DNA of 63,976 nt, filler included, from Candidatus Woesearchaeota archaeon (lineage in GTDB: Archaea > Nanobdellota > Nanobdellia > Woesearchaeales > CAZJJJ01): the NCBI GenBank assembly GCA_046538795.1. It is 7 parts of 7 records of this genome, joined end to end, with 100 filler letters (N's around TTAATTAATTAA, not from the genome) between each part and the next. Parts side by side here need not be neighbours in the genome. Positions count along the whole stretch, not along the records: positions 1 to 27,649 come from JBKHIF010000013.1; 6 more parts are not named here. One strand, written 5' to 3'. Position numbers and translations under genes: made by a program. The stretch's first letter is position 1. Every line of letters begins with the position of its first letter. Below are positions 2,272 through 46,144 of the stretch, one piece after another. Under the pieces are notes generated by a model, which was not told where the DNA came from, did no database searches, and saw only the letters and a program-made list of their open reading frames with translations.

Positions 2272-2859
2272 ATGGCTGAATATTCGTATGAACTCAAGAT
2301 CCCTAAAGAAAGGGTTGCAGTGTTGATAGGTATAGATGGCACTGTGAAATCCAATCTGGAAAATGAGACAAAAACCAAGATAAAAGTAGATTCTGAAGAA
2401 GGAGATGTCTTTATCAAGGGAGATGATGCAATACTTCTTTTCAATGCAAGGGAAGTTGTAAAAGCCATAGGAAGAGGGTTTAATCCAGAGATTTCTTTTC
2501 TCCTCTTGAAATCAGATTATATGTTTGAGTTGATAAGTCTCATGGATGTCATAAAATCAAAAAATTCTATAAAACGCCTCAAAGGAAGAGTAATCGGCCA
2601 TGAAGGAAAAGCAAGACGTATAATTGAAGAGATGACAGAGTGTCATGTCTCTGTATATGGGAAGACAATTGGCGTAATAGGACGTGCAGAGCGCATAGGT
2701 TATGCAAAAGAGGCAGTAAAGAAGCTTATCGAAGGAAGCCCTCACTCATCTGTATATAAATGGCTTGAAAAGAAAAGAAAAGAGATGGGCATGCAGGATA
2801 TTTTCTTTTCACGTGATGAAAACAGCGATATAAAGGATGAGTTCAGAAAAGAACTCTGA
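2272..2859 (+). CDS. KH-domain pre-rRNA processing protein (Pno1/Dim2/Krr1-like)
   Basis: IPKERVAVLIG, AIGRGF, RLKGRVIG-x-EGK and GSPHSSVY motifs. Confidence 0.9.
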   Translation: MAEYSYELKIPKERVAVLIGIDGTVKSNLENETKTKIKVDSEEGDVFIKGDDAILLFNAREVVKAIGRGFNPEISFLLLKSDYMFELISLMDVIKSKNSIKRLKGRVIGHEGKARRIIEEMTECHVSVYGKTIGVIGRAERIGYAKEAVKKLIEGSPHSSVYKWLEKKRKEMGMQDIFFSRDENSDIKDEFRKEL

Positions 2860-3063
2860 GTCCTGATAATTTTATAATGTCTTTTTTTGGCAAATATATT
2901 TCATTTTATTCGGAATTGTTTCAATAATTATCAAATAAATTAGAAATCTTTCTGCTTGTTCCGAATCTTTTTCCTTTTTCTCGGATAGCTTACAGATAAT
3001 TCTGCAAAAATCTCTTTTTAATGATCATATTATCTTTATCTATCGATATTTGAGGTGGAATAA

Positions 3064-4026
3064 ATGATCAATTATCAGCAAAACCTAAACTATGATGATG
3101 GAAGTGGCATTTTTGGAGAATATCTTAAAAAAGCAAATGATACTGTATCTCCAAAAGCAGTAAAGCAGGTCTATAATTCAACGCTTGATGATATAAACGA
3201 ATTCAACAGAGTGTTGTTTGGTTCAAGATCTCCTGTGAAATCTTTGGGAAGAAAGATAAGAAATCGGATAAAAGACATATTTTCTGATAAAGAAGGAATC
3301 ATTGAAAAGATGGAAAAAAGAGTCAATATACTTGACTATTGCATATCTGACGTCCACATGATGAAAGAGGTTGCAGAAAATGCCTATGACCGCCTTGAAT
3401 CTCTTGTGGAGTCAAATTATGATGTGCTCTACAGCATATCTACAAATATTCCTTCTTTGATAAGTGAAGCACAAGATGAAAAGACAAGATTGATACAACT
3501 TTATGAAAGGCGAGAAGCTGATGATACTCTGCCATATGAACAGATCACTCTTGGGAAAGAAATATTTACAGGAGAAAATGCATACAAGGCAAAAGTAAAT
3601 GAAGTCAAGATAAAGTATGAAACAATGAACCTTCTTGCAAACATACTTAAGAGAAATAAGAATTATGCAAGTACGCTTATTGATGTAGCTACATTCTATG
3701 AGCGTTCTCATGTAATCGGAAAAGCAATACGCACTCAGATGCGGGCTCACATAGAAACTCTAAAGAGTGGAACAATGCTTGCTGAAAGTGCAAATAGTCT
3801 TGATATAGTCTCAAGCGATCTCATGGCCCTTTCAAACCAGGCAGATAAGATATGGCTTAGATCATGTCAGAAGATATCAGGGTTGTCGAGATCTTTGGAA
3901 GACAAGACCTATGCAGAAGATAATATAGATTCTCTCTCTTCAGTCTCTTCAGGAAATCTTGAAGATGCAAAAAGATTCATAGACCATGAAGAAAAGGAGA
4001 TAAAGAATCTTTTTAAGAATCTTTGA
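3064..4026 (+). CDS. hypothetical helical/coiled-coil protein
   Basis: 320-aa ORF with GAGGTGG Shine-Dalgarno upstream; no recognised motif. Confidence 0.75.
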   Translation: MINYQQNLNYDDGSGIFGEYLKKANDTVSPKAVKQVYNSTLDDINEFNRVLFGSRSPVKSLGRKIRNRIKDIFSDKEGIIEKMEKRVNILDYCISDVHMMKEVAENAYDRLESLVESNYDVLYSISTNIPSLISEAQDEKTRLIQLYERREADDTLPYEQITLGKEIFTGENAYKAKVNEVKIKYETMNLLANILKRNKNYASTLIDVATFYERSHVIGKAIRTQMRAHIETLKSGTMLAESANSLDIVSSDLMALSNQADKIWLRSCQKISGLSRSLEDKTYAEDNIDSLSSVSSGNLEDAKRFIDHEEKEIKNLFKNL

Positions 4027-4063
4027 ATTGTTTTTATTTCTAAATTTTGGGTTTGCCCTGGAA

Positions 4064-4245
4064 GGGTACTTCTTTGGAGCAATACCTCGCCTTTGAAGGC
4101 GAATTTTGAAATTAGAAAATCACGTCAGCTGCGAAAGCCGTAATACCCCACACTTCAGTGTGGGGATACCTAAGACTTTCAGTTTTAGGGATTATAAATT
4201 TTTTAAATTTTTAATATGCTTGAGCAGTGATTTTCTTTATTTTTT
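4064..4245 (+). mobile_element. MITE/PATE-like dispersed hairpin repeat, copy 1
   Basis: AGAAAATCAC (4114-4123) and GTGATTTTCT (4227-4236) form an inverted pair; hairpin CCCCACAC-TTCA-GTGTGGGG; homologous blocks at 23966, 26371 and 29183. Confidence 0.7.
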
Positions 4246-4399
4246 TTCATTTTTTATTGATCTTAATTACAATCTATATTTTTCAAAATGATAAACTTTA
4301 TTAATCAGTTCCGAACAAGTCTTTTTATTGCTTATTTAAGATTGTCTTCCTTAAGGCTATCTTCCAAGCAAGGTTTTAATTGATATTGGTGCTAAATAT

Positions 4400-6166
4400 A
4401 TGGGTGATGACGCTTCTACAAAAGTGACTGCAGAGACCATGGCTAAAGGCCATAGGGATATTTCTATTGCAGAGTTTTTTGAAAAAAACAGGCATCTTCT
4501 TGGATTTGATAATAAGAAAAAAGCTCTTCTTACGACTATCAAAGAGGCTGTTGATAATTCATTGGATGCTTGTGAAGAGGCAAGGATACTCCCTGAACTT
4601 CAGGTTGAGATTATAGATATGGGCAATGACAGGTACAGGGTTGTTGTCGAAGATAATGGTCCTGGGATCATAAAGGCAAACATTCCTAAAGTATTTGCAA
4701 AACTTCTCTATGGAAGCAAGTTCCATGCAAGGAAACAGTCAAGAGGACAGCAGGGAATTGGAATTTCTGCTTCGGTCATGTACGGACAGCTTACTACAGG
4801 ACGCGCTGCAAAGATAAAGTCTAAGACAGGACCTAATAAGCCTGCGCATTATTATGAACTTAGGATAGACACTACAAAAAACAAGCCTGACATACTAAAA
4901 GAAGAAATTCTGGAAGATTGGATAAAAGACCAAGGTACAAGAATAGAGATAGATCTTGAGGCAAGCTATCTTAAGGGGGATCAGTCTGTAGATGAATATC
5001 TTAAAAATACAGCGATAGTCAATCCTCACGCAACAATTATCTATACTAATCCTAAATCTGAGCAGCAGATATTTCCACGAGCAACAGAAAAGCTTCCGAA
5101 AGAAGCAAAACCTATAAAGCCGCATCCTTACGGTGTTGAACTTGGAACTCTCATAAAGATGATCAACACCACTCAGGCAAAAACTCTTCAGCAGTTCCTG
5201 ACAACTGATTTTTCTAGAGTCGGAAGCGGAACTGCAAAGTTGATATGCGAAAATGCAGCGATCCCTCCAAATACAAAGACAAAAAAGATAAGCAGGCAGC
5301 AGGCAGAAGATATCTATCACGCGATAAATAAGACAAAGATAATGTCTCCTCCTACAGATTGCGTTGTGCCTATAGGTTCAGAACTTATCGAAAAAGGAGT
5401 TAAAAAAGAGATCAATGCAGAATTTTACTGCTCAGTTACAAGACCTCCTAATGTTTACAGAGGTAATCCTTTCATAATAGAAGCAGCAATAGCTTACGGA
5501 GGAGAGATATCAGGAGATAGTCCTGTACAGGTATTAAGGTTTGCGAATCGTGTCCCTTTGCTTTATCAAAAAGGAGCATGTGCAACAGCAAAAGCCATAA
5601 GCAGCATAAACTGGAGGCCTTATGGACTTTCCCAAAGCAGTGGAGCTGTACCAGTAGGACCTGCGATAGTGCTTGTCCATCTTGCAAGTGTCTGGACACC
5701 ATATACCTCAGAAGCAAAAGAAGCTATTGCTCATTATGATGAGATAATCCAGGAGATGAAACGAGCTTTATGGGAATGCGGAAGAAAACTTTCATCTTAT
5801 GTCACTAAAAAGAAACGTGTGAAAGATGAATTAAGGAAAAAATCATACATAGAGAAATATCTTCCTTATGTAGGAGAAGCTCTTCATGAGATACTTGGCA
5901 TAGGAAAACAAAGTGAAGAGCAGGTAAGCATGATACTTAAGGATATGCTTGATAAGACAAGGAAGATTACGCAACTTAAGGATCGTGACGTCCAAGAGAC
6001 AAAAGGGGCTTTTGATGAAGAAGATTCAGAAGATGAAAACGACGATTCAGGAGATGAAGATTACAATAACGATGATTATTCAGATGATGGTTCTGATGAT
6101 GATTATTCAGATGATGAAGAGAGAAGATCAGACCAATCAAGCCTGAATTCATATGTTGATGAATAA
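4400..6166 (+). CDS. top6B: DNA topoisomerase VI subunit B with acidic C-terminal tail
   Basis: EFFEKNRHLLGF, KEAVDNSLDA, DNGPG, SRGQQGIG, RFANRVPL. Confidence 0.97.
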   Translation: MGDDASTKVTAETMAKGHRDISIAEFFEKNRHLLGFDNKKKALLTTIKEAVDNSLDACEEARILPELQVEIIDMGNDRYRVVVEDNGPGIIKANIPKVFAKLLYGSKFHARKQSRGQQGIGISASVMYGQLTTGRAAKIKSKTGPNKPAHYYELRIDTTKNKPDILKEEILEDWIKDQGTRIEIDLEASYLKGDQSVDEYLKNTAIVNPHATIIYTNPKSEQQIFPRATEKLPKEAKPIKPHPYGVELGTLIKMINTTQAKTLQQFLTTDFSRVGSGTAKLICENAAIPPNTKTKKISRQQAEDIYHAINKTKIMSPPTDCVVPIGSELIEKGVKKEINAEFYCSVTRPPNVYRGNPFIIEAAIAYGGEISGDSPVQVLRFANRVPLLYQKGACATAKAISSINWRPYGLSQSSGAVPVGPAIVLVHLASVWTPYTSEAKEAIAHYDEIIQEMKRALWECGRKLSSYVTKKKRVKDELRKKSYIEKYLPYVGEALHEILGIGKQSEEQVSMILKDMLDKTRKITQLKDRDVQETKGAFDEEDSEDENDDSGDEDYNNDDYSDDGSDDDYSDDEERRSDQSSLNSYVDE

Positions 6167-6243
6167 TAAATAAGACAAAAAGTGATTATTTGTTAAACAT
6201 AATATTTAATTGATAAGTTAAAATCGATAATAAGTTGATTGAT

Positions 6244-7350
6244 ATGGCGACAAAAGCAGTAAAATCAGACAATTTGGTACTTAAGAAAATAAAAGATTCT
6301 GCTAATGATATCTATATGGACATATTAAGACGTGAAAAACCAAGCGTGAGCATGCCAATAAGGTCTCTTTCAAACGTTACATACAATGCAGAAGTTGGTT
6401 ATTTTGAGATGTCTATGAAAGAAAAAGAAAGAACCCTTACAGCATCTACTGTAAAAACTTTTGCTCAGACTCTCAAGATGATGTCTCTTTCAAAAAACCT
6501 GGTTGAGACAGATGATATTGCTACAAAAAGGGAAGCTTATTATGTTTCTAAGAACTGGGGAGAAGCTCGATTTAAGGAACAGCCTGAATCAGATTCTGTC
6601 ATGGATGATGTTGAAGCTATGTTTAGAGTAAACAGGGAACAGCTTGGTTTCATACCAGAAGAAAAAGGCGGTGCTGTTTCAGGGCAGCTTGTTGTTGTTG
6701 ACATAGATCCTGAAACAGGTGAAGATGTGAAGATAGATTGCACAAAGATGGGTTCAGGAAGCTATGCCATCCCTAATTCAGTTGAACAATTGAGGTTTGA
6801 GACAAAAGCAGATTTTATCCTTGCGATAGAGACAAGCGGTATGCATCAGAGGCTTGTAAAGCATAAGTACTGGAAAAAAGCAAATTGCATTCTCATTGCG
6901 CTGGGAGGAGTTCCTACAAGAGCGACAAGAAGATTCATAAGAAGACTTTCTGATGATAAGAAATTACCAGTATATGTATTCACAGATGGAGATCCATATG
7001 GATGGTTAAATATCTATAGGACGCTTAAGGTAGGATCAGGAAACGCTGCTCATATAAACAAGTTTTTCTGCGTTCCACAGGCAAAATTCTTTGGCATAAC
7101 TGCACAGGACATAATTGATTATAGACTTCCTACACATCCTTTGAAAGATATTGACGTAAAAAGGATAAAAGATGGTCTGAAAAATGATCCTTTTGTTCAG
7201 GAATACAAGCTATGGCAAAAATGCATGAAAGATCTTGTAAAGATGAAGAAAAGGGCAGAGCAGCAGGCATTGGCAAAACACGGACTTAACTATGTCATGG
7301 AAAAGTATCTGCCAGATAAATTAAAAAATGCAAAAAGCTGGCTTCCTTAG
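6244..7350 (+). CDS. top6A: DNA topoisomerase VI subunit A
   Basis: TKREAYY active-site region, TOPRIM FTDGDPYG, AEQQAL; directly follows top6B. Confidence 0.97.
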   Translation: MATKAVKSDNLVLKKIKDSANDIYMDILRREKPSVSMPIRSLSNVTYNAEVGYFEMSMKEKERTLTASTVKTFAQTLKMMSLSKNLVETDDIATKREAYYVSKNWGEARFKEQPESDSVMDDVEAMFRVNREQLGFIPEEKGGAVSGQLVVVDIDPETGEDVKIDCTKMGSGSYAIPNSVEQLRFETKADFILAIETSGMHQRLVKHKYWKKANCILIALGGVPTRATRRFIRRLSDDKKLPVYVFTDGDPYGWLNIYRTLKVGSGNAAHINKFFCVPQAKFFGITAQDIIDYRLPTHPLKDIDVKRIKDGLKNDPFVQEYKLWQKCMKDLVKMKKRAEQQALAKHGLNYVMEKYLPDKLKNAKSWLP

Positions 7351-9365: not shown

Positions 9366-9456
9366 CGGGCCAGGGAGGATTCGAACCCCCGGTCTCAAGC
9401 TTGCTTCTTCTGTGGATTAGAAGGCTCGCGCATTATCCAGACTATGCTACTGGCCC
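9366..9456 (-). tRNA. tRNA-Arg(TCT) with 16-nt intron at 37/38 (9402-9417)
   Basis: Acceptor GGGCCAG/CTGGCCC, anticodon arm CGAGC-CTTCTA|A-GCTTG, T-arm GGTTCGAATCC. Confidence 0.93.
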
Positions 9457-9989: not shown

Positions 9990-11141
9990 TTAATTAAGAA
10001 AATCAATCTCAACTTCGAAAGAATCTTCTGTGGGGTATTCTGTAACTATTGCACATCTGTTTTTGATCTTCTTGGAAAGTTTTTTTGCAATTTTTACTGA
10101 AGTTAATATCCTAAGCTTATTTTCATCTCTTGCAATCATCTTGTCTTTTATCTTGAAATCTTTTTTCAGGTTTTCTTCAGTCTTTTTTAGAGACTCGAGA
10201 GTTTTTTGATTTTTCATTGCCTTTATTTTTTTCTGATATCCAAAACCCGGTTCAAGCCCTTTAGGGTAAATAACACCTCTTATCAGCATTCCTTCGGGGT
10301 CAACAACATCAAATTCCTGTCTTATATTCTCTGCCCGTCTCATTATCCTTTTTGCAAGCTGGACCTTATCTTTTAATTTAGCTGTGCAGAAATGAACATC
10401 AAGTTTTATGTTGTTTTCAGATACGTAAGATAACAATTCTTTTGCAAGCTTATCAGAACCTTTCACAGCATATGATGTCTTGTTCTTGGTCTTGAATCCC
10501 ATGTCTGATAATCTGCTTACTTTGTTATCTGCCATCTCAAGTTCATTCAGATTGATAAAGTTAACTTTTTCCTCTACAAATTCAATTAGTTTTTTTAGTT
10601 CCGTCCCTTTTCCTGGAATGACCGGAACTTCAATTCCTATCTTCCAGTTGTATTTGATAGCAAGATTAATCCTGTCCCAATATTTGTTGTCATCAAGATC
10701 TGGATGAAATCTTATCTCATCAAGCCCTGCCATATAAAGTTCTCTTAATGACTCATTTGAAACAAGATCAAGAGATGTGTAAAGATGTATATGAAAAATC
10801 TTTTTTTTAGTCTGGAATTTATCTTTAAGAGATTTTATGAAACGAACAGTTCTATTGAGCCTTGCAAGCGGATCTCCGCCTGTAATTCCTGCTCCTGCAG
10901 ATTCGCAGAGTTCTGCTTCTTTGATAATCTTATCTACCTCAGTCTCCTTGTCAATCTTTTTTTCATTTGCATAGATGACGTCTTTGCTGTACTTGTCATC
11001 AGATAATGGGCAGAAATAGCATTTTCTTGGGCATATGCCTGTAACAAATAAAACAAGCTTTTCTCCTTTTACACAATACTTACAGCCATCTGCAAGATTA
11101 CCTAATTTTTTTGAGTAAAAGCCAGTATTTTTGATCTGCAT
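9990..11141 (-). CDS. radical SAM protein, conserved archaeal family
   Basis: CxxxCxxC (CPRKCYFC), GITGGDPL, GLDEIRFH. Confidence 0.9.
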   Translation of the reverse strand: MQIKNTGFYSKKLGNLADGCKYCVKGEKLVLFVTGICPRKCYFCPLSDDKYSKDVIYANEKKIDKETEVDKIIKEAELCESAGAGITGGDPLARLNRTVRFIKSLKDKFQTKKKIFHIHLYTSLDLVSNESLRELYMAGLDEIRFHPDLDDNKYWDRINLAIKYNWKIGIEVPVIPGKGTELKKLIEFVEEKVNFINLNELEMADNKVSRLSDMGFKTKNKTSYAVKGSDKLAKELLSYVSENNIKLDVHFCTAKLKDKVQLAKRIMRRAENIRQEFDVVDPEGMLIRGVIYPKGLEPGFGYQKKIKAMKNQKTLESLKKTEENLKKDFKIKDKMIARDENKLRILTSVKIAKKLSKKIKNRCAIVTEYPTEDSFEVEIDFLN

Positions 11142-11549: not shown

Positions 11550-11696
11550 TTCGCTTCACATCCTTTTTTTATCGATTAACCCTAAATGAATAACAATTAT
11601 CCGATAATGCGAACAAGATATATATTTAATCAATGTATTATATATATAATTTCACAAAAACATATATTTTTTAATATACTATGATTAACCAGATAT

Positions 11697-12644
11697 ATGG
11701 GTGAAAATATAAGGCGAAAAATAATACTTCACGGTCCTTCAACGCTTTCTGTATCTCTTCCATCTAAATGGGTTAAGAAAAATAATCTTGAAAAAGGAGA
11801 TGAGATTAATATCAGTGAAAAAAATTCTGTCCTTATGATAAGTTGCGATAATATGGCAGAAGACAGGACAAGGATAGTTCTTGATACAAAAGACAAAAGC
11901 GAATCTGTCATTAAAAAATTTCTATTGTCATGCTATAGAAAAGGTATTGATGAGATTGAGCTTTTATTTGGTTCTTATGAGTGTATTGATTTTTTGAAAA
12001 ATTTTATCAATGATATGATGGTTGGATTTGAGATAATAAAGCATACTGCAAATAACATTACTATAAGAAGCATATCAGTACCTGCGATAAACGAATTTAA
12101 AAATTTAAAGCGAAGACTATTTCTTTCTGTTATAGAATACTCTGAAAATATGAAAATTATCCTTGAAGAAAATACATTAGATAATTCTGATCAATACGAC
12201 TCTCTTATAGGAAGCATTTCAAGGATAAGCAATCTCTGTTACAGGATACTTGTGAAAAATAATGATCTTGATGACAGGGTGCATGAAAGCATGATAGTTG
12301 CATCCCTTGACAGGATAGGCAGCACATTGTTTGATTTTCTTTCTGAGGCAAGCCATTCTGTTGCTGATCTTAGCAATATAAAAAAAAGATATGTATCCAC
12401 CATAAGCTTGCTTCGATCTGTCTATGAGACCCATTATAATTATTCTTTAACAACTTATTCAGTTCTTGTCGAAAAGCATAAGAAGAATTCTCATGAAATC
12501 ATGAAAGATCTCTTTTTTGCTGAAACTGATTCTGTTATCTGGAGCAGACTTTATAGTCTTTCAGAACGGATCGCCGACCTTTTTGATCCTATCCTGGCTC
12601 TCAACTGTAATCCCATTGACACTAGAAGTCATGCTGATCAGTGA
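11697..12644 (+). CDS. AbrB-PhoU family regulator, archaeal type
   Basis: RKIILHGPSTLSVSLPSKWVKKNNLEKGDEI AbrB N-terminus, YRKGIDEI, C-terminal helical PhoU-like repeats. Confidence 0.8.
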   Translation: MGENIRRKIILHGPSTLSVSLPSKWVKKNNLEKGDEINISEKNSVLMISCDNMAEDRTRIVLDTKDKSESVIKKFLLSCYRKGIDEIELLFGSYECIDFLKNFINDMMVGFEIIKHTANNITIRSISVPAINEFKNLKRRLFLSVIEYSENMKIILEENTLDNSDQYDSLIGSISRISNLCYRILVKNNDLDDRVHESMIVASLDRIGSTLFDFLSEASHSVADLSNIKKRYVSTISLLRSVYETHYNYSLTTYSVLVEKHKKNSHEIMKDLFFAETDSVIWSRLYSLSERIADLFDPILALNCNPIDTRSHADQ

Positions 12645-14012
12645 CTTAAGTATTCCTTTTTCATCACATGAGTTACATTTATTCATTATATCTTCCCTTG
12701 GTTTTTCTTTGTTTCTTATTTTATAAAGATACATATATAACTCTTTAAGCTTTTCATGGAGTTCACTCTGGATATTATCATCCATTGTTCTAGTCTTTTC
12801 CATCCAATGTATGCTAAGGCTGGTCTTCCTTAGCTTATTGTAGAATTCAAGTTCATCAAAAAGAAAATTATATCTTTGTTCATCTATAGATTCCTTGATA
12901 TTTTTGATCTTTTCATGATAATGTTTCTTAAGATCATTTAGTAAGTTAATATCTTCTCTTATCTCTACATGATCAAATATGTCCTGCATATCGTTTTCGT
13001 TGTATTCTTTATAAGAGATATCATAATAGAATATATTTGACAGCAAAAATCTTTTTGTATCATCAAAAGTAGATTGGTTCAGTCCCTTGAATATAAGATC
13101 TATTATTTTTTCTTTTTTATCTTCAGGAATAGATATATCCTGTTCGTCTCTGTTGACCAAAGAGGATATCCTTCTTGTATCAAAGAATCTTTCTACTGAA
13201 GAAAGGTTTATCAGGACATTATCTGGGTTTATGTATCTTAATCTAAAATAAGGATCCTTGTCAAGAATTTGTCCTATCCTCTCAAGATCTGCATATATGT
13301 CTTTATTTGCAATGATTTCATACTTGTAAAGGATCTTATCAAATGATTCTTTTATCTTTTTGCTGTGGTATTCATAAACCTCTTTTGTATCTTCAAGTTC
13401 TGCCAGTTGAAGAGTTATCAGGTTATCGATCATTTTCTTAAGAAGTAGAGCTAAGAGCTTTTTTGCAAAAGGATTTTTTCTTTTTTCTTTTTTGATCGTT
13501 TCCAAAAGGTCAGAAAGCCTGATTCCTTCTATCTCCTGCAAAAGGACATAATTTTCACAGATATAAGCTTCAGGAGCATTGATAAATGAAAGTTTTGAAA
13601 GCATAGGATTATCTATCTTTCCTGTTCTTGCTTTTTTCAGTTCTTTATTGTGTTTTGCGATCTTTGAAAATATTTCTCTTTTCAGGTCACCATCTTCTTT
13701 CTTCTTAAGCCTGTATATTTTTCCATCTATACGCAATAATATGCCTTTTTCAGGAAAATTATCATGAGATATATCCTTTCTGTAATATTTCAGATAAAGC
13801 CTTATTAGTTTTTCAGCATCTTCTTTTCTGCCTTCAGAAAAATATCTCTTCAGGGTATTTAGAACATTGATCTTTTGCGTCGTGTTGTTTCCTATCGCTT
13901 TTTCTTTAAGAAGATCATTTCTTTCATAAAGATTCTTAATCTCGTTTTTCAGCATGATTCTTTCTTTTCTCAAATCATCGATAATCTTCATCAAGTCCTT
14001 TTTTGACGGCAT
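12561..14012 (-). CDS. hypothetical protein with degenerate APH/choline-kinase-like fold (probable pseudokinase)
   Basis: APEAY...LLQEIEGIRLSDLL hinge-like segment, LRYINPDNVLI catalytic-loop-like segment lacking the Asp, FYYD. Confidence 0.5.
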   Translation of the reverse strand: MPSKKDLMKIIDDLRKERIMLKNEIKNLYERNDLLKEKAIGNNTTQKINVLNTLKRYFSEGRKEDAEKLIRLYLKYYRKDISHDNFPEKGILLRIDGKIYRLKKKEDGDLKREIFSKIAKHNKELKKARTGKIDNPMLSKLSFINAPEAYICENYVLLQEIEGIRLSDLLETIKKEKRKNPFAKKLLALLLKKMIDNLITLQLAELEDTKEVYEYHSKKIKESFDKILYKYEIIANKDIYADLERIGQILDKDPYFRLRYINPDNVLINLSSVERFFDTRRISSLVNRDEQDISIPEDKKEKIIDLIFKGLNQSTFDDTKRFLLSNIFYYDISYKEYNENDMQDIFDHVEIREDINLLNDLKKHYHEKIKNIKESIDEQRYNFLFDELEFYNKLRKTSLSIHWMEKTRTMDDNIQSELHEKLKELYMYLYKIRNKEKPREDIMNKCNSCDEKGILKSLISMTSSVNGITVESQDRIKKVGDPF

Positions 14013-14156
14013 ATTTATGGATAATCTAATTGTTTTTATAAATATGATTTGTTTACTTTTTGAAAATAATCTGGTTTTTTATCCTGTTACTCCCGTAAAT
14101 ATTAAAAACAAGCTTTTTGATTTTTAAATAAGAAAACCTAAAAAGGGGTGGTTTTA

Positions 14157-14378
14157 ATGAAAAAAAATGTTTTGTTAGTTGTAAAAGTGTTAACAGTAAT
14201 GCTGGTTCTTGGCGGACTTTTCATGGGTTCGACAGCTCTTGCAGGAGAATCAGTGCCTGAAGTGGTAGCAGATGGCAGTAAAGATGATGGGTTATTTCAG
14301 CCATTGAGTGGATGTAAAAATGCATGCGGCTGGTGTCCTAATGATGGTGCATGTGATTTTGCTCTAAGGTGCTGCTAG
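14157..14378 (+). CDS. secreted Cys-rich prepro-peptide, 73 aa
   Basis: AGGGGTGG SD before ATG 14157; signal peptide ending ALA, acidic pro-region ending FQPL, core SGCKNACGWCPNDGACDFALRCC. Confidence 0.75.
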   Translation: MKKNVLLVVKVLTVMLVLGGLFMGSTALAGESVPEVVADGSKDDGLFQPLSGCKNACGWCPNDGACDFALRCC

Positions 14379-16583
14379 ATTTCTTATTTCTTTTATAAAA
14401 TACATGTCGGCCAGCGTATGGCTGGTCTTTTTACCTGATGCTCTTGGAAAAACCCAGTATGCATCATTTAATATTGCATTTTCTTTTTCACCAACATGAT
14501 CTGATAATAATTTTTCCAATATAATTTTTTTTGACAAAACATATTCAGAATAATTGTCATTGTCTGCATATATTTCTGGAATAAGAAGCAATAGTCTTGC
14601 AGCAGCAGTCGTATCCTTTGAACTGGTTTTTTCATCATATGAAAATGCAAACAAGTAAGGTATTTCGGGTTGTTCAAGTATCTTGTTGTTAAGTTCTATT
14701 GCTTTATTTGAATAGCTCTTGTTTTTGGTTTTTTCATAAACAAGATGATTTGCATATGCTGCCTGAAGATAATCCCTTGTAAATACAGATGAATAATTTT
14801 TCAATGATTTATCAGTTAATATGACTGCTCCCCCTTTTCTTACTCCGCTATGTGAACTGTCTTTTAGAAGGATATTTTTAGTCGCAATATTGTTTTTCAT
14901 AGGTTCATCAAGACCCATCTGGTTCATGATATCCTGTCTTGCAATTACACTTTCATACATATAAGCATCATCTTCAATATTCATCTCATTGAATTTATCC
15001 AGTTTTTCTTTTGCATAGGAAAAATAGGTTATGTTTCCTGTCTCATCATATAGCCAAACAAGAAACTCAACTGTGTACATATCTTCAGTACCTGTAACAT
15101 TAACCCTGAAATTATCAAGAAGGAATATTGTGTTATAAGCAACCTCAACCAGCTTATCAAGATACTTTATATCTCCAGTTATCTCATAAGCAGGAGCTAG
15201 AGCATAATAATATTTCATGCTTACTGAGCCTTCATCAACATCCATATAATATATCTTATCTGCATATTCTATAGCATAAGGAAGAACTTCAGGGAAATCT
15301 TCAGCAACAGTGAAAAGAATATTTACAAAATAACCTATGTCATCAGAATCTTCTTCTAAAAAGACCCAGTTTCCTTCCTTATCCAGATAGACAGGGAAAA
15401 GTAATTCTCCATTTGCTCCTGAAAAAACCCCTTTCTCTAATGGTTTTATGATCTTTTGCTTAACAATGCCTGAATAAAGCTTTTCAGCCATCCTCTGGTT
15501 CTCGGAAAGGTCTATTCCACGTCTCTCTATTCTTGATGCAATCGCCCCGACGCTGTTATATTCATCCCAGAATATTTTTCCAAGATAAAATGCATTTATC
15601 AAAAAGAAAAATATTATTATGGCAAGACCTGCAATCTTTACCTTTTTTCTAAGTTCGATTAGTCCAAGATCTTTAATCACTTGATCTTCAGAATCAAATC
15701 TATCTTTTGGATTTCTGGAAATACCTTTTTCAATAAGCCTCTTAATAGATTTATTCAAATTTACTGATGTGTCAGGAGGAATCACAACCTTTCTTTTTTT
15801 CTTGAGCCTGATTATTTCCTTGTCGCTAATACCATTTTCTTTGCCAAAGGCCTGTTCTCCGGAAATCATCTCATAAAGAACAAGAAACGCCTGATACTGG
15901 TCAGTTTTATCATTAAGCTTGAAATGTCCTTTTCCCCAGCCAACTTGTTCAGGGGCCAGATAGGGAGTTGTTCCCAAACTTTTGAATACGGAAAGATCAT
16001 CAATATCTGACCCTTCTCTTTTGAGTTTTGCAATCCCAAAATCTATGAGATATGCCGAGACTTGTGAAGGAGAAACATCATCGAAATAAGAACTAACGCT
16101 TTCCTTTTTGAACTTCTTGTCTGAAGATATTATTATATTATCCGGCTTTATATCAAGATGAAGAATGTTCTTTTCATGAGCATGTTTTAATGCCTTGATA
16201 ATCTCTTTGAATATCTTAAGGGCAATTTTTTCAGGTATTGTTTTGCCTTTAGAATGATATGAATCAAGGATCTTTTTTAAAGAAACCCCATTTTCTATGT
16301 GCTGAGACCTTATGAAAATATTATCTCTTTTTTTTACTATATCATATATGACAGCGATATTTTTGTGCTTCATACCTGCAAGGATCTTTGCCTCTCTCTC
16401 AAATCTCTCTTTTGCAATAGGGTCATCAAGTTTCAGGATCTTTATATCCTCGAGCCGCATCAGGTTTTTGTTCTCAACAAGCAAAGAATGAGAAAATCCG
16501 CCTTCTCCATGGATCTTTTTAATGTCAAAATCGCTTTCCAGAACGCTTCCTATCATCTCTTTGATAGCATCTCCTTCGCCCAT
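14364..16583 (-). CDS. membrane-spanning Hanks-type Ser/Thr kinase with C-terminal alpha/alpha-toroid (GH88/LanC-like) domain
   Basis: GEGGFS, ERFERE, HLDIKPDN, DFGIAK, GTTPYLAPEQ; TM IAGLAIIIFFFLINAF; repeated YExTGDxxY-type hairpins and KDTTAAA. Confidence 0.85.
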   Translation of the reverse strand: MGEGDAIKEMIGSVLESDFDIKKIHGEGGFSHSLLVENKNLMRLEDIKILKLDDPIAKERFEREAKILAGMKHKNIAVIYDIVKKRDNIFIRSQHIENGVSLKKILDSYHSKGKTIPEKIALKIFKEIIKALKHAHEKNILHLDIKPDNIIISSDKKFKKESVSSYFDDVSPSQVSAYLIDFGIAKLKREGSDIDDLSVFKSLGTTPYLAPEQVGWGKGHFKLNDKTDQYQAFLVLYEMISGEQAFGKENGISDKEIIRLKKKRKVVIPPDTSVNLNKSIKRLIEKGISRNPKDRFDSEDQVIKDLGLIELRKKVKIAGLAIIIFFFLINAFYLGKIFWDEYNSVGAIASRIERRGIDLSENQRMAEKLYSGIVKQKIIKPLEKGVFSGANGELLFPVYLDKEGNWVFLEEDSDDIGYFVNILFTVAEDFPEVLPYAIEYADKIYYMDVDEGSVSMKYYYALAPAYEITGDIKYLDKLVEVAYNTIFLLDNFRVNVTGTEDMYTVEFLVWLYDETGNITYFSYAKEKLDKFNEMNIEDDAYMYESVIARQDIMNQMGLDEPMKNNIATKNILLKDSSHSGVRKGGAVILTDKSLKNYSSVFTRDYLQAAYANHLVYEKTKNKSYSNKAIELNNKILEQPEIPYLFAFSYDEKTSSKDTTAAARLLLLIPEIYADNDNYSEYVLSKKIILEKLLSDHVGEKENAILNDAYWVFPRASGKKTSHTLADMYFIKEIRNLAAP

Positions 16584-16660
16584 GGATAAGAAGATTTAGA
16601 GAACATTATTTAAATCTTTAGAGCCATGCAATAAGATTTATAAATCTTCAGCATTATCTT

Positions 16661-17059
16661 ATGGTTATGGCACAGCTTACGCGTATCAAAGTTGTACTTG
16701 TATTCCGGGACATGAACTTTTGTTCAGATGTAAGAGGAAAGCTTGCTAACATGGATAATCGCTATGAAATCTATGAAAGCTCGCTTACAGGAAACTATAC
16801 ATCTCTTATAATGAATCAGTCTCCTGATGTGATAATTATGGATGTAACAAAATCAGATGAATTAAGCGATTCTGTCATAATGAATCTGTCAGGAGATTCA
16901 GATATGAAACACATTCCTCTCATATTTCTTTTATCTTCAAGAAATGACGAAGTCATAGAAGGCATGACTCAGATGTTTTCAAGAGATTTTATGAAAAAGC
17001 CGATTGATTACGATAAGCTTGACGAGAAGATCAAGAAATTAGCATCTGAAAATCAATGA
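16661..17059 (+). CDS. single-domain response-regulator receiver (CheY-like, atypical acidic pocket)
   Basis: PDVIIMD, IPLIFL, FMKKPID motifs. Confidence 0.8.
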   Translation: MVMAQLTRIKVVLVFRDMNFCSDVRGKLANMDNRYEIYESSLTGNYTSLIMNQSPDVIIMDVTKSDELSDSVIMNLSGDSDMKHIPLIFLLSSRNDEVIEGMTQMFSRDFMKKPIDYDKLDEKIKKLASENQ

Positions 17060-17111
17060 TCAGATAATTATACAGGAAAGTTTTTTATTATAGGTATTAC
17101 TTTTTCTATCA

Positions 17112-45956: not shown

Positions 45957-46053
45957 CCACAAAACTTTTACTAAAGTTTTATCAAAAGTATGCATGGGGG
46001 ACATTCTGAAAAGAAGTCCCACGAGATTGTTGTATAGGTTTTTAGAAAGTAAG

Positions 46054-46144
46054 TGGGCTCTAGGGGATTCGAACCCCTGACCTATTGGTTTCTGCTAGTA
46101 AACTATTAAGAGCCAATTGTTCTACCTAGCTAAACTAAGAGCCC
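46054..46144 (-). tRNA. tRNA-Lys(CTT) with 17-nt intron at 37/38 (46090-46106)
   Basis: GGGCTCT/AGAGCCC acceptor, ATTGG-CTCTTA|A-CCAAT, AGGGGTTCGAATCCCCT. Confidence 0.93.

What the first reader, a model, noticed from the sequence alone, without database searches (positions are those of the whole stretch)
12561..17059. Candidate peptide-receptor-kinase signalling locus in a DPANN-like archaeon
Seen in sequence: four adjacent genes on one contig. (1) A secreted prepro-peptide with a 6-Cys core. (2) A convergent single-pass Ser/Thr kinase overlapping it by 15 bp, with a roughly 400-aa outside domain. (3) A divergently transcribed orphan receiver domain 77 bp from the kinase start. (4) A kinase-fold protein lacking the catalytic Asp. 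Established: Hanks kinases with one TM and an external sensor are receptors (PknB-type), and Cys-rich peptide ligands for receptor kinases are known in plants. Inference: a ligand-receptor-output module for quorum, kin or host sensing, or a toxin with its cognate sensor, which I do not know to be described in archaea.
Basis: partly seen in the sequence, partly recalled or inferred. Interest (0 to 1): 0.8.

Follow-up and report, generated by a model that had tools for sequence, protein, structure and literature searches.

The report
Archaeal secreted-peptide and receptor-kinase module
A small-genome (DPANN-type) archaeon carries a rare, conserved trio of genes: a DNA-binding regulator, a secreted cysteine-rich peptide, and a membrane kinase whose outer part looks like a sugar-cutting enzyme. 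It is a strong candidate for the first peptide-and-receptor signalling pair in archaea.

Summary
The fourth, a "kinase fold lacking the catalytic Asp", could not be confirmed.

The core idea holds up. The Hanks kinase has an outside domain that defines a tiny family: about 17 representatives among 1.84 billion proteins, and 4 of 401 genomes in the order. In 9 of 9 loci with DNA beyond the kinase 3' end, a convergent gene encodes a signal peptide plus a C-x3-C-x2-C…C…CC core. That gene is under purifying selection (dN/dS 0.14-0.20).

Strong peptide matches occur only in the four genomes that also have the kinase.

The outside domain is a GH88-like (α/α)6 toroid (Z 33), a sensor type I found no report of on a Hanks kinase.

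The receiver and the 483-aa gene are not conserved partners. An AbrB-type regulator is: it sits next to the peptide gene in 8 of 9 loci, and the six full-length copies form their own clade (99/97).

Among three near-identical sibling contigs, 11 of 13 amino-acid changes in about 3,000 residues fall in the peptide core or the ectodomain.

Binding and signalling remain inferred. The complex prediction gave no verdict, and no RNA data exist.

The parts
11697..12644 (+). AbrB/SpoVT-domain regulator (315 aa) with a C-terminal helical domain of about 250 aa. It belongs to the kinase-linked subfamily.
   Evidence: PF04014 matches at E 1.9e-6, above the cut-off. A homolog lies directly upstream of the peptide gene on the same strand in 8 of 9 family loci. 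In a tree of 17 paralogs, the 6 full-length kinase-linked copies form a clade with 99/97 support, apart from the genome's own two other paralogs. A PhoU-like C-terminal domain is only a weak lead (E 0.043 and 0.0025 in two relatives).
12561..14012 (-). 483-aa protein of unknown family, lying between the regulator and the peptide gene in this genome only. It is not a conserved part of the module.
   Evidence: It has no family and no word-sharing homolog. Distant colinear homologs lie convergent with AbrB-type paralogs in G011 (BLASTP E 0.004, 22% identity) and G027 (hhalign 51%, E 1.5e-4). Neither genome gave a kinase-ectodomain match. It is absent from the other 8 module loci.
14157..14378 (+). 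Secreted pre-peptide gene, 73 aa (an alternative GTG start at 14148 gives 76 aa).
   Evidence: It is conserved in 9 of 9 loci. There are 26 clusters in 5.8 billion proteins. dN/dS is 0.14-0.20.
14157..14243 (+). Predicted Sec-type signal peptide (residues 1-29, ending ALA|GE).
   Evidence: It has a KK n-region, a hydrophobic core and small residues at -1 and -3. The same layout is present in all 9 aligned peptides. This was read by eye; no signal-peptide predictor was available.
14310..14375 (+). Cys-rich core (residues 52-73): C-x3-C-x2-C-x5-C-x5-CC.
   Evidence: In 26 family members, C60 and C72 are invariant, and C53, C57, C66, C73 and G64 are kept in at least 90%. The Cys count is even (6 or 4) in all 9 locus peptides. 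All 3 strain differences (G52T, A56S, F68Y) lie here.
14406..14427 (+). Terminator-like hairpin followed by a T run, 28 bp past the peptide stop and inside the kinase coding region.
   Evidence: This is a consensus scan only: 2 sites found against 1.4 expected. It is weak evidence.
14364..16583 (-). Single-pass Hanks-type Ser/Thr kinase, 739 aa.
   Evidence: PF00069 matches at E 2.3e-34. It is the only canonical Hanks kinase found in the genome.
15690..16520 (-). Kinase catalytic domain (residues 22-298).
   Evidence: K48, H142, D144, K146, N149 and D181-F182-G183 are invariant, and E64 is kept in at least 90% of the 12 family members.
15579..15635 (-). Transmembrane helix (residues about 317-335).
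   Evidence: There is a hydropathy maximum at the equivalent place in all family members examined, with K/R-rich flanks on the kinase side.
14367..15551 (-). Extracellular GH88-like (α/α)6 toroid domain (residues 345-739).
   Evidence: The AF2 model has pLDDT 83.1 and pTM 0.87. Foldseek gives GH88 at E 3.2e-13, TM 0.69-0.73. VIA-align gives Z 33.3 and 33.2 to GH88, with the next family at Z 25.4. Pfam GH88 is weak in 7 of 12 members, best E 2e-5.
15042..15074 (-). Strain-variable ectodomain patch 1 (residues 504-514).
   Evidence: One sibling contig has 6 replacements here (T504W, V505I, F507H, L508F, V509I, E514K).
14622..14636 (-). Strain-variable ectodomain patch 2 (residues 650-654).
   Evidence: D650G and S654T occur in both sibling kinase variants. 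The variant peptide is recorded on two contigs, consistent with both siblings carrying it, but the contig-to-variant pairing was not verified.
16661..17059 (+). Divergent single-domain receiver, transcribed divergently from the kinase. It is a neighbour here only.
   Evidence: No homolog was found in G002 or G020, and it is absent from the other module loci.

Best explanation
This is a dedicated three-gene extracellular signalling module of Woesearchaeota/Nanoarchaeota-type (DPANN) archaea. An AbrB-type regulator gene is followed by a small gene. The product of that gene is exported through a Sec-type signal peptide and folds into a core of about 22 residues held by 2-3 disulfides.

Convergent with it lies the genome's only canonical Hanks kinase. 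Its cytoplasmic catalytic domain is joined through one membrane helix to an outside GH88-like six-hairpin toroid.

Proposed mechanism: the released peptide binds the toroid of its cognate kinase, probably in or near the pocket that binds sugar in GH88 enzymes. This changes kinase activity. The kinase then phosphorylates cytoplasmic targets. The co-inherited AbrB-type regulator is the leading candidate target, and it sets transcription of the peptide gene and other genes. The result would be an autocrine, quorum-like or kin-discriminating loop whose specificity drifts between strains.

Shown: the genes, their domain content, their strict co-occurrence and co-inheritance, purifying selection on the peptide, the fold of the outside domain, and the concentration of strain-level changes in the two outside parts.

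Inferred: export and disulfide formation, peptide-toroid binding, kinase regulation, and the regulator as substrate.
For: Rarity and fusion: the outside domain has 19 matches at E<=1e-3 among 1.84 billion representatives, of which I read about 17 as true. Every full-length one (696-807 aa) carries the match behind a kinase domain.

Co-occurrence: the ectodomain is found in 4 of 401 genomes of the order. Peptide-profile matches at E<=1e-17 occur in exactly those 4 genomes, and the next best match is 8.5e-6.

Adjacency: a convergent signal-peptide/Cys-core ORF lies at the kinase 3' end in 9 of 9 loci with downstream DNA. Kinase identities among these loci are about 27-31%. In controls the filter found 4 unlike ORFs in 1.32 Mb.

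The peptide gene is real: dN/dS is 0.14-0.20, and the Cys pattern is conserved across 26 clusters.

Both partners face outward: the peptide has a signal peptide. The kinase's positively charged flank lies on the kinase side of its single helix.

Kinase catalytic residues are intact.

Regulator: it is adjacent in 8 of 9 loci, and the 6 full-length copies form a clade with 99/97 support. As precedent, B. subtilis AbrB is phosphorylated by the Hanks kinases YabT, PrkC and PrkD, and this lowers its DNA binding (passage in PMC4837961).

Strain-level pattern across three sibling contigs: 0 changes in the kinase cytoplasmic half (337 aa). There are 0 in the regulator (293), 0 in the 483-aa gene and 0 in the receiver (130). 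Two flanking genes have 1 change each. By contrast there are 8 changes in the ectodomain and 3 in the peptide core. That is 11 of 13 replacements within about 14% of about 3,044 compared residues.

A second close pair, L015/L016, shows 0 differences in 1,000 bp of the kinase half. The ectodomain stretch has 28 differences in 1,400 bp, and the peptide gene has 11 in 200 bp.
Against: No binding or activity data exist, and no RNA run holds the locus.

The outside domain is most like a carbohydrate-active enzyme. A glycan is therefore an equally natural ligand, and the peptide could be an output rather than an input.

The genes are convergent, so they are not co-transcribed.

One locus (L007) lacks the regulator.

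Two peptides (L005, L014) have only 4 Cys.

The strain-level pattern rests on 3 sibling sequences known only as proteins. The six changes at 504-514 may be one event. Counting events conservatively, 3 of 5 fall in the outside parts, which by my own arithmetic gives p of about 0.02.

In the L015/L016 pair the regulator's C-terminal end (4 of 87 aa) and the GAPDH side (21 differences in 1,400 bp) also differ. That looks like a recombination mosaic, not a clean cassette.

Exposed surfaces also diversify under virus or host pressure.

The regulator-as-substrate step is inference from adjacency plus a bacterial precedent.
Confidence: 0.45

Rival explanations
1. Glycan sensor with a peptide output. 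The GH88-like toroid binds or cleaves a uronate-containing glycan of a host cell surface, mat matrix or the cell's own envelope. The kinase relays this, perhaps through the AbrB-type regulator, to switch on the neighbouring gene. The secreted Cys-rich product of that gene is an effector (antimicrobial, adhesive or host-directed) that never touches the kinase.
For: The best structural matches are GH88 unsaturated glucuronyl hydrolases (Z 33, well above other six-hairpin families), with weak Pfam GH88 matches in 7 of 12 members. Regulators and kinases are often encoded beside the genes they control. Other small secreted or anchored Cys-containing proteins occur in related genomes without such a kinase. 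DPANN archaea are known as cell-surface symbionts (my own knowledge).
Against: This reading does not by itself explain why the peptide core and the ectodomain are the parts that change between near-identical strains. The canonical GH88 'HDLGF' Asp motif is not visibly conserved in the only sequence alignment obtained, which is weak and not decisive. The peptide family was found only with this kinase.
Confidence: 0.28
2. Enzyme plus proteinaceous modulator. The toroid is an active ecto-glycosidase. The peptide is its inhibitor, activator or obligate subunit, and the kinase reports enzyme occupancy.
For: This rests on the same fold evidence and the same co-inheritance and co-variation evidence as the main reading.
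Against: Catalytic residues could not be placed. I know of no precedent for a GH88 enzyme regulated by a small disulfide peptide (my own knowledge; a search for GH88 with a kinase domain found 0 papers).
Confidence: 0.1
3. Inherited synteny without a shared function. The peptide gene and the kinase merely sit together by descent in one lineage.
For: All loci come from one archaeal order or from unclassified metagenome contigs. Four of the nine (L011, L012, L015, L016) are close relatives.
Against: The pair persists at about 27-31% kinase identity while upstream neighbours change completely: receiver, GAPDH, Cass2/GyrI-like and unknown genes. Presence and absence match in both directions across 401 genomes. 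Both products are extracellular.
Confidence: 0.05
4. RiPP-type maturation, like class III/IV lanthipeptide synthetases. The kinase and toroid of one protein modify the neighbouring Cys-rich precursor.
For: A kinase domain followed by an (α/α) toroid next to a Cys-rich precursor recalls LanKC/LanL. The kinase domain gives weak NCBIfam matches to lanthi_synth_IV and lanthi_synth_III (E 1e-8 and 1.3e-7). LanCL1 appears at E 0.13 in a profile search.
Against: There is no lyase domain, since the kinase domain starts at residue 22. A membrane helix separates the kinase and the toroid onto opposite sides of the membrane. The ectodomains have 0-1 Cys, so no Cys-Cys-His zinc site is possible. The window's core has a single Ser/Thr. 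The leader is a Sec-type signal peptide.
Confidence: 0.03
5. Anti-virus defence kinase of the PD-T4-6 / Mad6 type.
For: PADLOC models PD-T4-6 (E 4.1e-44) and mad6 (E 6.7e-42) match residues 13-310. NCBIfam MAD6 and PglW match weakly.
Against: The matches cover only the generic kinase domain. All NCBIfam scores are far under their cut-offs. None of the other four local proteins matches a defence family, apart from one E 8e-4 stretch of the receiver. No methyltransferase or BREX partners are present.
Confidence: 0.03

Closest known systems
Bacterial single-pass Hanks receptor kinases (PknB/PrkC/StkP, PASTA type)
   Same: Both have a cytoplasmic Hanks kinase domain with intact catalytic motifs, one membrane helix and a C-terminal extracellular sensor. 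The best NCBIfam match is PknB_PASTA_kin over the kinase domain.
   Different: There are no PASTA repeats (131 bits against a cut-off of 450, covering residues 12-310 only). The sensor is a GH88-like toroid. The ligand candidate is a gene-encoded peptide rather than a muropeptide. The organism is archaeal.
Peptide quorum-sensing cassettes of Gram-positive bacteria (agrBDCA, comCDE)
   Same: A small exported peptide gene lies next to its membrane receptor kinase gene and a transcription regulator. Strain-level variation concentrates in the peptide and the receptor's sensor part, as in agr or com specificity groups (my own knowledge for agr/com; for this locus).
   Different: The receptor is a Ser/Thr (Hanks) kinase, not a histidine kinase. 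The regulator is AbrB-type, not a response regulator. The peptide uses a Sec-type signal peptide and disulfides, not a thiolactone or double-glycine leader. No dedicated processing or export gene was seen.
Plant cysteine-rich peptide / receptor-like kinase pairs (e.g. SCR/SP11-SRK, LURE-PRK6, EPF-ERECTA)
   Same: Both have a secreted disulfide-rich peptide ligand and a single-pass Ser/Thr kinase of the same superfamily. In the SCR-SRK case the two genes are linked and co-diversify (my own knowledge).
   Different: The ectodomain fold is unrelated (LRR, S-domain or malectin in plants). No homology of the peptides was detected: none in Pfam or NCBIfam and none in the PDB. This is an analogy of logic, not membership.
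GH88 unsaturated glucuronyl hydrolases (PDB 1vd5, 3wiw)
   Same: Both have the (α/α)6 toroid fold, with 333-338 residues aligned at 3.0 Å and Z 33. The C-terminal motif resembles the GH88 'GDYYYLE' end.
   Different: Identity is 14-19%. The Pfam score is below the cut-off for the window protein (11 bits against 26.6). The domain is tethered to a kinase through a membrane helix. The catalytic Asp motif was not recognisable in the alignment obtained.
Class III/IV lanthipeptide synthetases (LanKC, LanL)
   Same: The order is a kinase domain, then an (α/α) toroid, next to a Cys-rich precursor gene.
   Different: There is no lyase domain. A membrane helix lies between the two domains. There are no zinc-ligand cysteines, no Ser/Thr-rich core, and the leader is a Sec signal peptide.

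Membership tests
Hanks-type (eukaryotic-like) Ser/Thr protein kinase | Match to the protein kinase domain model above the curated cut-off | tested here: met
   PF00069 scores 119.4 bits against a cut-off of 31.7, E 2.3e-34, over residues 22-298.
Hanks-type (eukaryotic-like) Ser/Thr protein kinase | Catalytic residues: beta-3 Lys, alpha-C Glu, HxD...N catalytic loop, DFG | tested here: met
   K48, H142, D144, K146, N149 and D181-F182-G183 are invariant, and E64 is kept in at least 90% of 12 family members. The Gly-rich loop is GEGGFS in the window but degenerate in relatives.
Hanks-type (eukaryotic-like) Ser/Thr protein kinase | Phosphotransfer activity | not testable with these tools
   This needs a biochemical assay.
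PASTA-type receptor kinase (PknB/PrkC) | Extracellular PASTA repeats | tested here: not met
   NF033483 scores 131 bits against a cut-off of 450 and matches only residues 12-310. There is no PASTA match in Pfam.
Single-pass receptor kinase (topology class) | One membrane helix with the kinase inside and the sensor outside | tested here: met
   There is a single hydropathy peak at residues about 317-335, with the basic flank on the kinase side. The same holds in 5 further members. This is by hydropathy and the positive-inside rule, not by experiment.
GH88 unsaturated glucuronyl hydrolase | (α/α)6 toroid fold closest to GH88 | tested here: met
   Z is 33.3 (1vd5) and 33.2 (3wiw), 333-338 residues at 3.0 Å, against 25.4 for the next family. 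Foldseek gives E 3.2e-13. The model has pLDDT 83.1.
GH88 unsaturated glucuronyl hydrolase | Sequence-family membership (PF07470 above cut-off) | tested here: not met
   The window protein scores 11 bits against 26.6, E 0.21. Seven of 12 members match at E<=1, best 2e-5.
GH88 unsaturated glucuronyl hydrolase | The two catalytic Asp residues | tested here: inconclusive
   In the only HMMER alignment that spans the region (3wiw, E 0.0018), the 'HDLGF' Asp aligns with non-conserved family positions. The alignment is weak and no residue-level structural alignment was available.
Response-regulator receiver domain (the 132-aa neighbour) | PF00072 above cut-off; phospho-acceptor Asp, acidic pocket, Thr/Ser, Lys | tested here: inconclusive
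   It scores 20.6 bits against 30.2. D61, S92/S93 and K113-P114 are present, and the first pocket Asp is Arg.
Peptide-receptor signalling cassette (agr/com-like logic) | Peptide gene and receptor gene linked and co-occurring | tested here: met
   The peptide ORF is present in 9 of 9 loci. Strong matches to each occur in the same 4 of 401 genomes.
Peptide-receptor signalling cassette (agr/com-like logic) | Peptide binds the receptor's sensor and changes kinase output | not testable with these tools
   This needs binding and phosphorylation assays.
Peptide-receptor signalling cassette (agr/com-like logic) | Co-variation of the peptide and the sensor between strains | tested here: inconclusive
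   Eleven of 13 replacements among three sibling contigs lie in the peptide core or the ectodomain. The variant peptide appears to go with 650G/654T, though the pairing was inferred from contig counts. There are only 3 strains, the changes are linked on DNA, and no nucleotide data are available for the siblings.
Class III/IV lanthipeptide synthetase | N-terminal lyase domain; cytoplasmic enzyme; Ser/Thr-rich core; (class IV) Cys-Cys-His zinc site | tested here: not met
   The kinase domain starts at residue 22. A membrane helix is present. There are 0-1 Cys per ectodomain, and 1 Ser/Thr in the window's core.
Protein-kinase-like fold (the 483-aa gene) | Recognisable PKL/APH fold with or without the catalytic Asp | tested here: inconclusive
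   It has no family. hhalign against the kinases gives 0.5%. AF2 gives pLDDT 37.5. Atlas leads to APH/Kdo are under the tool's 0.9 bar. The G027 homolog has 'DRHPRN' where this protein has 'YINPDN'.

The most novel reading that the evidence does not exclude
This would be the first gene-encoded peptide ligand for a prokaryotic Hanks kinase and the first peptide-based cell-cell signalling system in archaea. The secreted disulfide-knotted peptide is the cognate ligand of a GH88-derived receptor domain. The peptide-core and sensor parts diversify together between strains to form specificity groups ('pherotypes'). These would let tiny symbiotic archaea in microbial mats count or recognise kin, with a dedicated AbrB-type regulator as the phosphorylated output.
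Probability: 0.33. Interest if true: 0.92.

Novelty: new variant of a known kind. Interest (0 to 1): 0.8.

Why it matters
Signal input to archaeal Ser/Thr kinases is essentially unknown. In the passages I read of the 2016 review PMC5007285, which I searched for 'ligand', 'receptor' and 'sensor domain', membrane-bound Hanks kinases appear only as a general scheme, with no identified ligand. No gene-encoded peptide ligand is known to me for any prokaryotic Hanks kinase.

This module offers a concrete, testable receptor-ligand candidate. The peptide and ectodomain can be made and mixed, and natural allelic pairs are available as specificity controls.

It also shows a glycosidase fold recruited as the sensor of a receptor kinase. 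A full-text search for 'unsaturated glucuronyl hydrolase', 'protein kinase domain' and 'transmembrane' together returned 0 papers.

If the loop works as proposed, it would extend peptide-based communication and kin discrimination to DPANN archaea. It would be an independent invention of the Cys-rich-peptide/receptor-kinase logic known from plants.

Tried and rejected
Complex prediction of the ectodomain (alignment A6) with the mature peptide (A7, residues 33-76) gave no verdict. The scores were 0.08 and 0.30 against a mark of 0.32, and the controls were not run. This is not evidence either way.

Expression: no RNA holder is listed for window 11600-17100. Only DNA runs labelled as microbial-mat metagenomes hold it. 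Laying contigs of two runs gave only short scattered pieces and no bridging record, so it was uninformative.

A word-index search with the ectodomain found only the protein itself. The same was true for the 483-aa protein.

The search for related loci with alignment A3 failed because no conserved stretch was found. With A5 on genome contigs, the pattern was a generic kinase motif. It returned 79 loci, all matching only the kinase domain and none a family locus, so that scan was wasted. On metagenome contigs, 6 of 80 loci were family members and the rest matched only the kinase domain.

A single-sequence AF2 model of the 483-aa protein was unusable at pLDDT 37.5, so it was not searched.

Profile searches of the PDB with the ectodomain picked up only the repeated 'YExTGDxKY' hairpin motif of several six-hairpin families (GH88, GH105, GH76, LanCL). 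They could not place catalytic residues. LanC-like chains are not among the 50 best VIA rows, which does not exclude a relation.

The peptide profile against the PDB gave nothing meaningful (best E 0.4). Pfam and NCBIfam gave nothing for the peptide.

A PhoU domain in the regulator is only sub-threshold, in 1 of 5 regulators (E 0.043) and in the G027 paralog (E 0.0025). I therefore do not call it PhoU.

I considered a radical-SAM/SCIFF-type link to the radical SAM gene at 9990-11141 and dropped it. The Pfam scan of the neighbours I chose in five other module loci showed no radical SAM gene, and the peptide has a signal peptide.

Literature searches found no description of this module. Searches returned only unrelated papers. 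Supplementary files were not consulted.

A mirror-tree test of peptide against ectodomain was not run. With 9 pairs, 4 of them close kin, it would mostly reflect shared descent.

Full report
THE OBSERVATION

The four ORFs exist at the stated places.

The peptide ORF is listed from a GTG at 14148 (76 aa). An ATG at 14157 preceded by GGGGTGG gives 73 aa starting MKKNVLL. That matches the starts of all relatives and the length of the database gene call. It has a basic n-region, a hydrophobic core and an A-L-A site. After an acidic stretch of about 20 residues it ends in C-x3-C-x2-C-x5-C-x5-CC.

The kinase (14364-16583, minus strand, 739 aa) matches Pkinase at E 2.3e-34 over residues 22-298. It has one hydrophobic helix at about 317-335, with RKKVK on the kinase side, followed by about 400 residues. 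The 3' ends of the two genes overlap by 15 bp.

The 132-aa neighbour, 77 bp upstream and divergent, is a weak receiver domain (20.6 bits against a Pfam cut-off of 30.2). It keeps the phospho-acceptor Asp61 and K113-P114 but has Arg in place of one pocket Asp.

The 483-aa ORF at 12561-14012 has no family. Its proposed kinase fold could not be confirmed:
- hhalign against the kinase family gave a probability of 0.5%.
- A single-sequence AF2 model was unusable at pLDDT 37.5.
- ESM Atlas leads to APH/Kdo-type phosphotransferases stayed below the tool's own 0.9 bar.

THE ORGANISM

Window positions 1-27649 are one contig of a 1.34-Mb genome in 97 contigs, 97.6% complete. Family members and the sibling copy of the peptide carry source labels 'Candidatus Woesearchaeota archaeon', 'Nanoarchaeota archaeon' and 'Candidatus Nanoarchaeia archaeon'. 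The 'DPANN-like archaeon' label is therefore reasonable.

THE OUTSIDE DOMAIN DEFINES A RARE FAMILY, ALWAYS FUSED TO THE KINASE

A word-index search found only the protein itself. An exhaustive HMMER search of 1.84 billion representatives found 19 proteins at E<=1e-3. One is the window's own protein. I read one as spurious: P0018, a repeat protein matched in 7 short stretches. The full-length ones (696-807 aa) all carry the match from about residue 345-425 onward, behind a kinase domain.

Among whole genomes, 3 of 60 relatives and 4 of 401 genomes of the order, counting the window's own, have it. Only 1 of the 6 other genomes of the same family does. The distribution is patchy.

THE PEPTIDE TRAVELS WITH THE KINASE

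All three related genomes have a small convergent ORF at the kinase 3' end. Each has a hydrophobic N-terminus and a Cys-rich C-terminus ending in CC.

A metagenome scan gave six more family loci among 80 returned. The other 74 matched only the kinase domain. A scripted filter for ORFs of 30-150 aa with at least 4 Cys in the last 30 residues found the peptide in 9 of 9 loci that have DNA beyond the kinase 3' end. A tenth locus, L013, is cut at the kinase. Spacing ranges from a 15-bp overlap to a gap of about 180 bp.

With a stricter filter, 181 control loci (1.32 Mb) gave 4 ORFs, none resembling the motif. The 64-kb window gave only this one.

A peptide profile searched over the same 401 genomes gave E<=1e-17 only in the four kinase-bearing genomes. 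The next best hit was 8.5e-6, and 46 genomes gave weak hits. The five weak hits I read are other membrane-anchored or secreted Cys-containing proteins without the motif.

In the 5.8-billion-protein collection the profile finds 26 clusters of 68-102 aa. Where they are named at all, they are called hypothetical proteins. Across them C60 and C72 are invariant, and C53, C57, C66, C73 and G64 are kept in at least 90%.

Among four close loci, dN/dS of the peptide gene is 0.14-0.20, so it is a protein-coding gene under purifying selection. The Cys count of the core is even (6, or 4 in two loci) in all nine. That fits full disulfide pairing.

WHAT THE OUTSIDE DOMAIN IS

An AF2 model built on 18 family sequences has pLDDT 83.1 and pTM 0.87 and is a helical toroid.

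Foldseek puts GH88 unsaturated glucuronyl hydrolases first (E 3.2e-13, TM 0.69-0.73). An independent all-against-representatives alignment gives Z 33.3 (1vd5) and 33.2 (3wiw) over 333-338 residues at 3.0 Å. The next families (mannose isomerase, YteR/GH105, epimerases, GH76) score Z 25 or less.

At the sequence level the link is faint. Pfam GH88 matches 7 of 12 members at E<=1, best 2e-5, and the window protein scores 11 bits against a cut-off of 26.6. Against the PDB the best is 3wiw at E 0.0018. In that alignment the GH88 'HDLGF' catalytic Asp falls on non-conserved family positions. The alignment is too weak to settle whether the domain is an enzyme.

The ectodomains contain 0-1 Cys. This excludes a LanC-type zinc site and a disulfide relay with the peptide.

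WHICH NEIGHBOURS BELONG

The receiver does not. No homolog was found in G002 or G020, which carry the kinase. Its best relatives are in genomes without a kinase match. The upstream neighbours in other loci are an unknown gene, GAPDH, or a Cass2/GyrI-like gene. The genome also has 11 canonical receiver domains and 8 HATPase_c matches, so the receiver need not depend on this kinase.

The 483-aa gene is found in no other module locus. Distant, colinear homologs of similar size lie convergent with, and overlapping, AbrB-type paralogs in two genomes that gave no kinase-ectodomain match. These are G011 (BLASTP E 0.004, 22% identity over 219 residues) and G027 (hhalign 51%, E 1.5e-4). The G027 protein has 'DRHPRN' where the window protein has 'YINPDN'. 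The 483-aa gene thus seems to be a companion of the regulator family, not of the kinase.

The gene that does belong is the AbrB/SpoVT-domain regulator at 11697-12644. A homolog sits directly upstream of the peptide gene on the same strand in 8 of 9 loci. Two of these are cut by contig ends, and L007 has a tRNA methyltransferase-like gene there instead.

Such regulators are a multi-copy family here, with matches in 29 of 31 genomes, up to 11 per genome and 3 in this one. In a maximum-likelihood tree of 17 of them, the six full-length kinase-linked copies form a clade with 99/97 support. That clade excludes this genome's two other paralogs and the copies from sister genomes that lack the kinase. 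The rows were the best ORF in each of the top loci plus the module loci. The two fragments were left out.

The conserved unit is therefore regulator -> peptide -> <- kinase.

STRAIN-LEVEL VARIATION

The protein collection holds copies from two sibling contigs.

Differences against the window's proteins:
- Regulator: 0 of 293 compared residues.
- 483-aa protein: 0.
- Receiver: 0 of 130.
- Radical SAM, 111-aa and 148-aa proteins: 0.
- tRNA methyltransferase: 1 of 320.
- GTPase: 1 of 364.
- Kinase, first 337 residues: 0.
- Ectodomain: 2 (D650G, S654T) in one sibling and 8 in the other (those two plus six changes within residues 504-514).
- Peptide: 3 (G52T, A56S, F68Y), all in the Cys core.

That is 11 of 13 replaced positions in about 14% of about 3,044 compared residues. 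The variant peptide is recorded on two contigs, consistent with both 650G/654T kinases, though I did not verify the pairing.

The 85 kinase residues encoded between position 654 and the peptide gene are unchanged, so a single imported tract is not an easy explanation. Only three strains are known, only as proteins, and the 504-514 patch may be a single event. Counting events conservatively gives 3 of 5 in the outside parts, p of about 0.02 by my own arithmetic.

A second close pair (L015/L016) shows a related picture. There are no differences in 1,000 bp of the kinase half, 28 in 1,400 bp of the ectodomain and 11 in 200 bp of the peptide gene. There, however, the regulator's C-terminal end (4 of 87 aa) and the GAPDH side (21 in 1,400 bp) also differ. 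That pair looks like a recombination mosaic.

INTERPRETATION

I regard the existence of a dedicated three-gene module as well supported. I put roughly 0.85-0.9 on the three genes acting in one pathway.

The most economical mechanism is that the exported, disulfide-bonded peptide is the cognate ligand or modulator of the toroid outside the cell. It would tune the only canonical Hanks kinase of this genome. The co-inherited AbrB-type regulator would be the likely output. In B. subtilis, AbrB is phosphorylated by the Hanks kinases YabT, PrkC and PrkD, with loss of DNA binding (passage in PMC4837961). I put 0.45 on this.

The main rival (0.28) is that the toroid senses a glycan, as its fold suggests, and the peptide is a regulated secreted effector. 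Minor rivals are:
- an enzyme-inhibitor pair,
- a lanthipeptide-like maturation system, contradicted by the missing lyase domain, the membrane helix, the Cys-free toroid and the Ser/Thr-poor core,
- a defence kinase, where the matches cover the generic kinase domain only,
- plain inherited synteny.

COMPARISON WITH KNOWN SYSTEMS

In logic the module resembles agr/com peptide cassettes and plant Cys-rich-peptide/receptor-kinase pairs. It is a member of neither. The receptor is a Hanks kinase rather than a histidine kinase, the ectodomain is a GH88-like toroid, and the peptide has no detectable relatives outside this family.

In the passages I read of the archaeal phosphorylation review (PMC5007285), membrane-bound Hanks kinases appear only as a scheme without a ligand. 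Full-text searches found no description of such a module. Supplements were not available.

I did not test that claim. It suggests that receptor kinases with unusual sensors recur in this group.

WHAT REMAINS OPEN

Open questions are export and processing of the peptide, its disulfide map, binding, the effect on kinase activity, the kinase's substrates, whether the toroid is catalytically active, and expression. The complex prediction gave no verdict and no RNA run holds the locus. Both are listed under things tried.

Noticed in passing
window 11697-12644 and 12561-14012; L189:129-2397; L225:109-2991: AbrB-type regulator genes lie convergent with, and overlapping (84 bp here, about 14 bp in the other two), a family of 458-655-aa proteins of unknown fold. 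This occurs in three genomes of three different families (G000, G011, G027). It may be a second conserved pair built around this regulator family, with a faint phosphotransferase-like signature.
   Followed up: partly
whole genome G000 (e.g. C25:3970-5116, C71:6333-8242, C20:1050-3843): This 1.34-Mb DPANN-type genome has 11 canonical receiver domains and 8 HATPase_c matches, some in clusters. I had not expected that in so small an archaeal genome.
   Followed up: no
window 9366-9456 and 46053-46144: Two tRNA genes of 91-92 nt. ARAGORN reads one with a four-base 'anticodon', and they probably contain introns.
   Followed up: no
L205, L207, L209, L211 (related genomes): Other small membrane-anchored or secreted Cys-rich proteins with different Cys patterns occur in related genomes. 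None of those genomes gave a kinase-ectodomain match; I did not inspect their local flanks. Such proteins seem common in this order.
   Followed up: partly
window 16584-16660: The 77-bp spacer between the kinase and the receiver holds two near-repeated TATA-like elements (ATTTAAATCTT and ATTTATAAATCTT). These may be divergent archaeal promoters.
   Followed up: no
L015 vs L016 (L016 coordinates 2300-6400): Two metagenome contigs are identical over 1,000 bp of the kinase half but differ by 1.5-5.5% on both sides. This is a recombination mosaic around the module.
   Followed up: partly
protein P0006 (family member): One family kinase is recorded on a contig of 6.9 Mb, far larger than a DPANN genome. 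It may be a concatenated record, or the family may exist outside small-genome archaea.
   Followed up: no
G002:C22:1015-1926 (L188): The kinase-linked regulator of G002 shows one in-frame TGA near its 5' end in the genome search. This could be a sequencing error, a different start or a damaged gene.
   Followed up: no
window 27650-63976: Only positions 1-27649 belong to the contig that holds the finding. The rest of the window lies on other contigs or is N.
   Followed up: no
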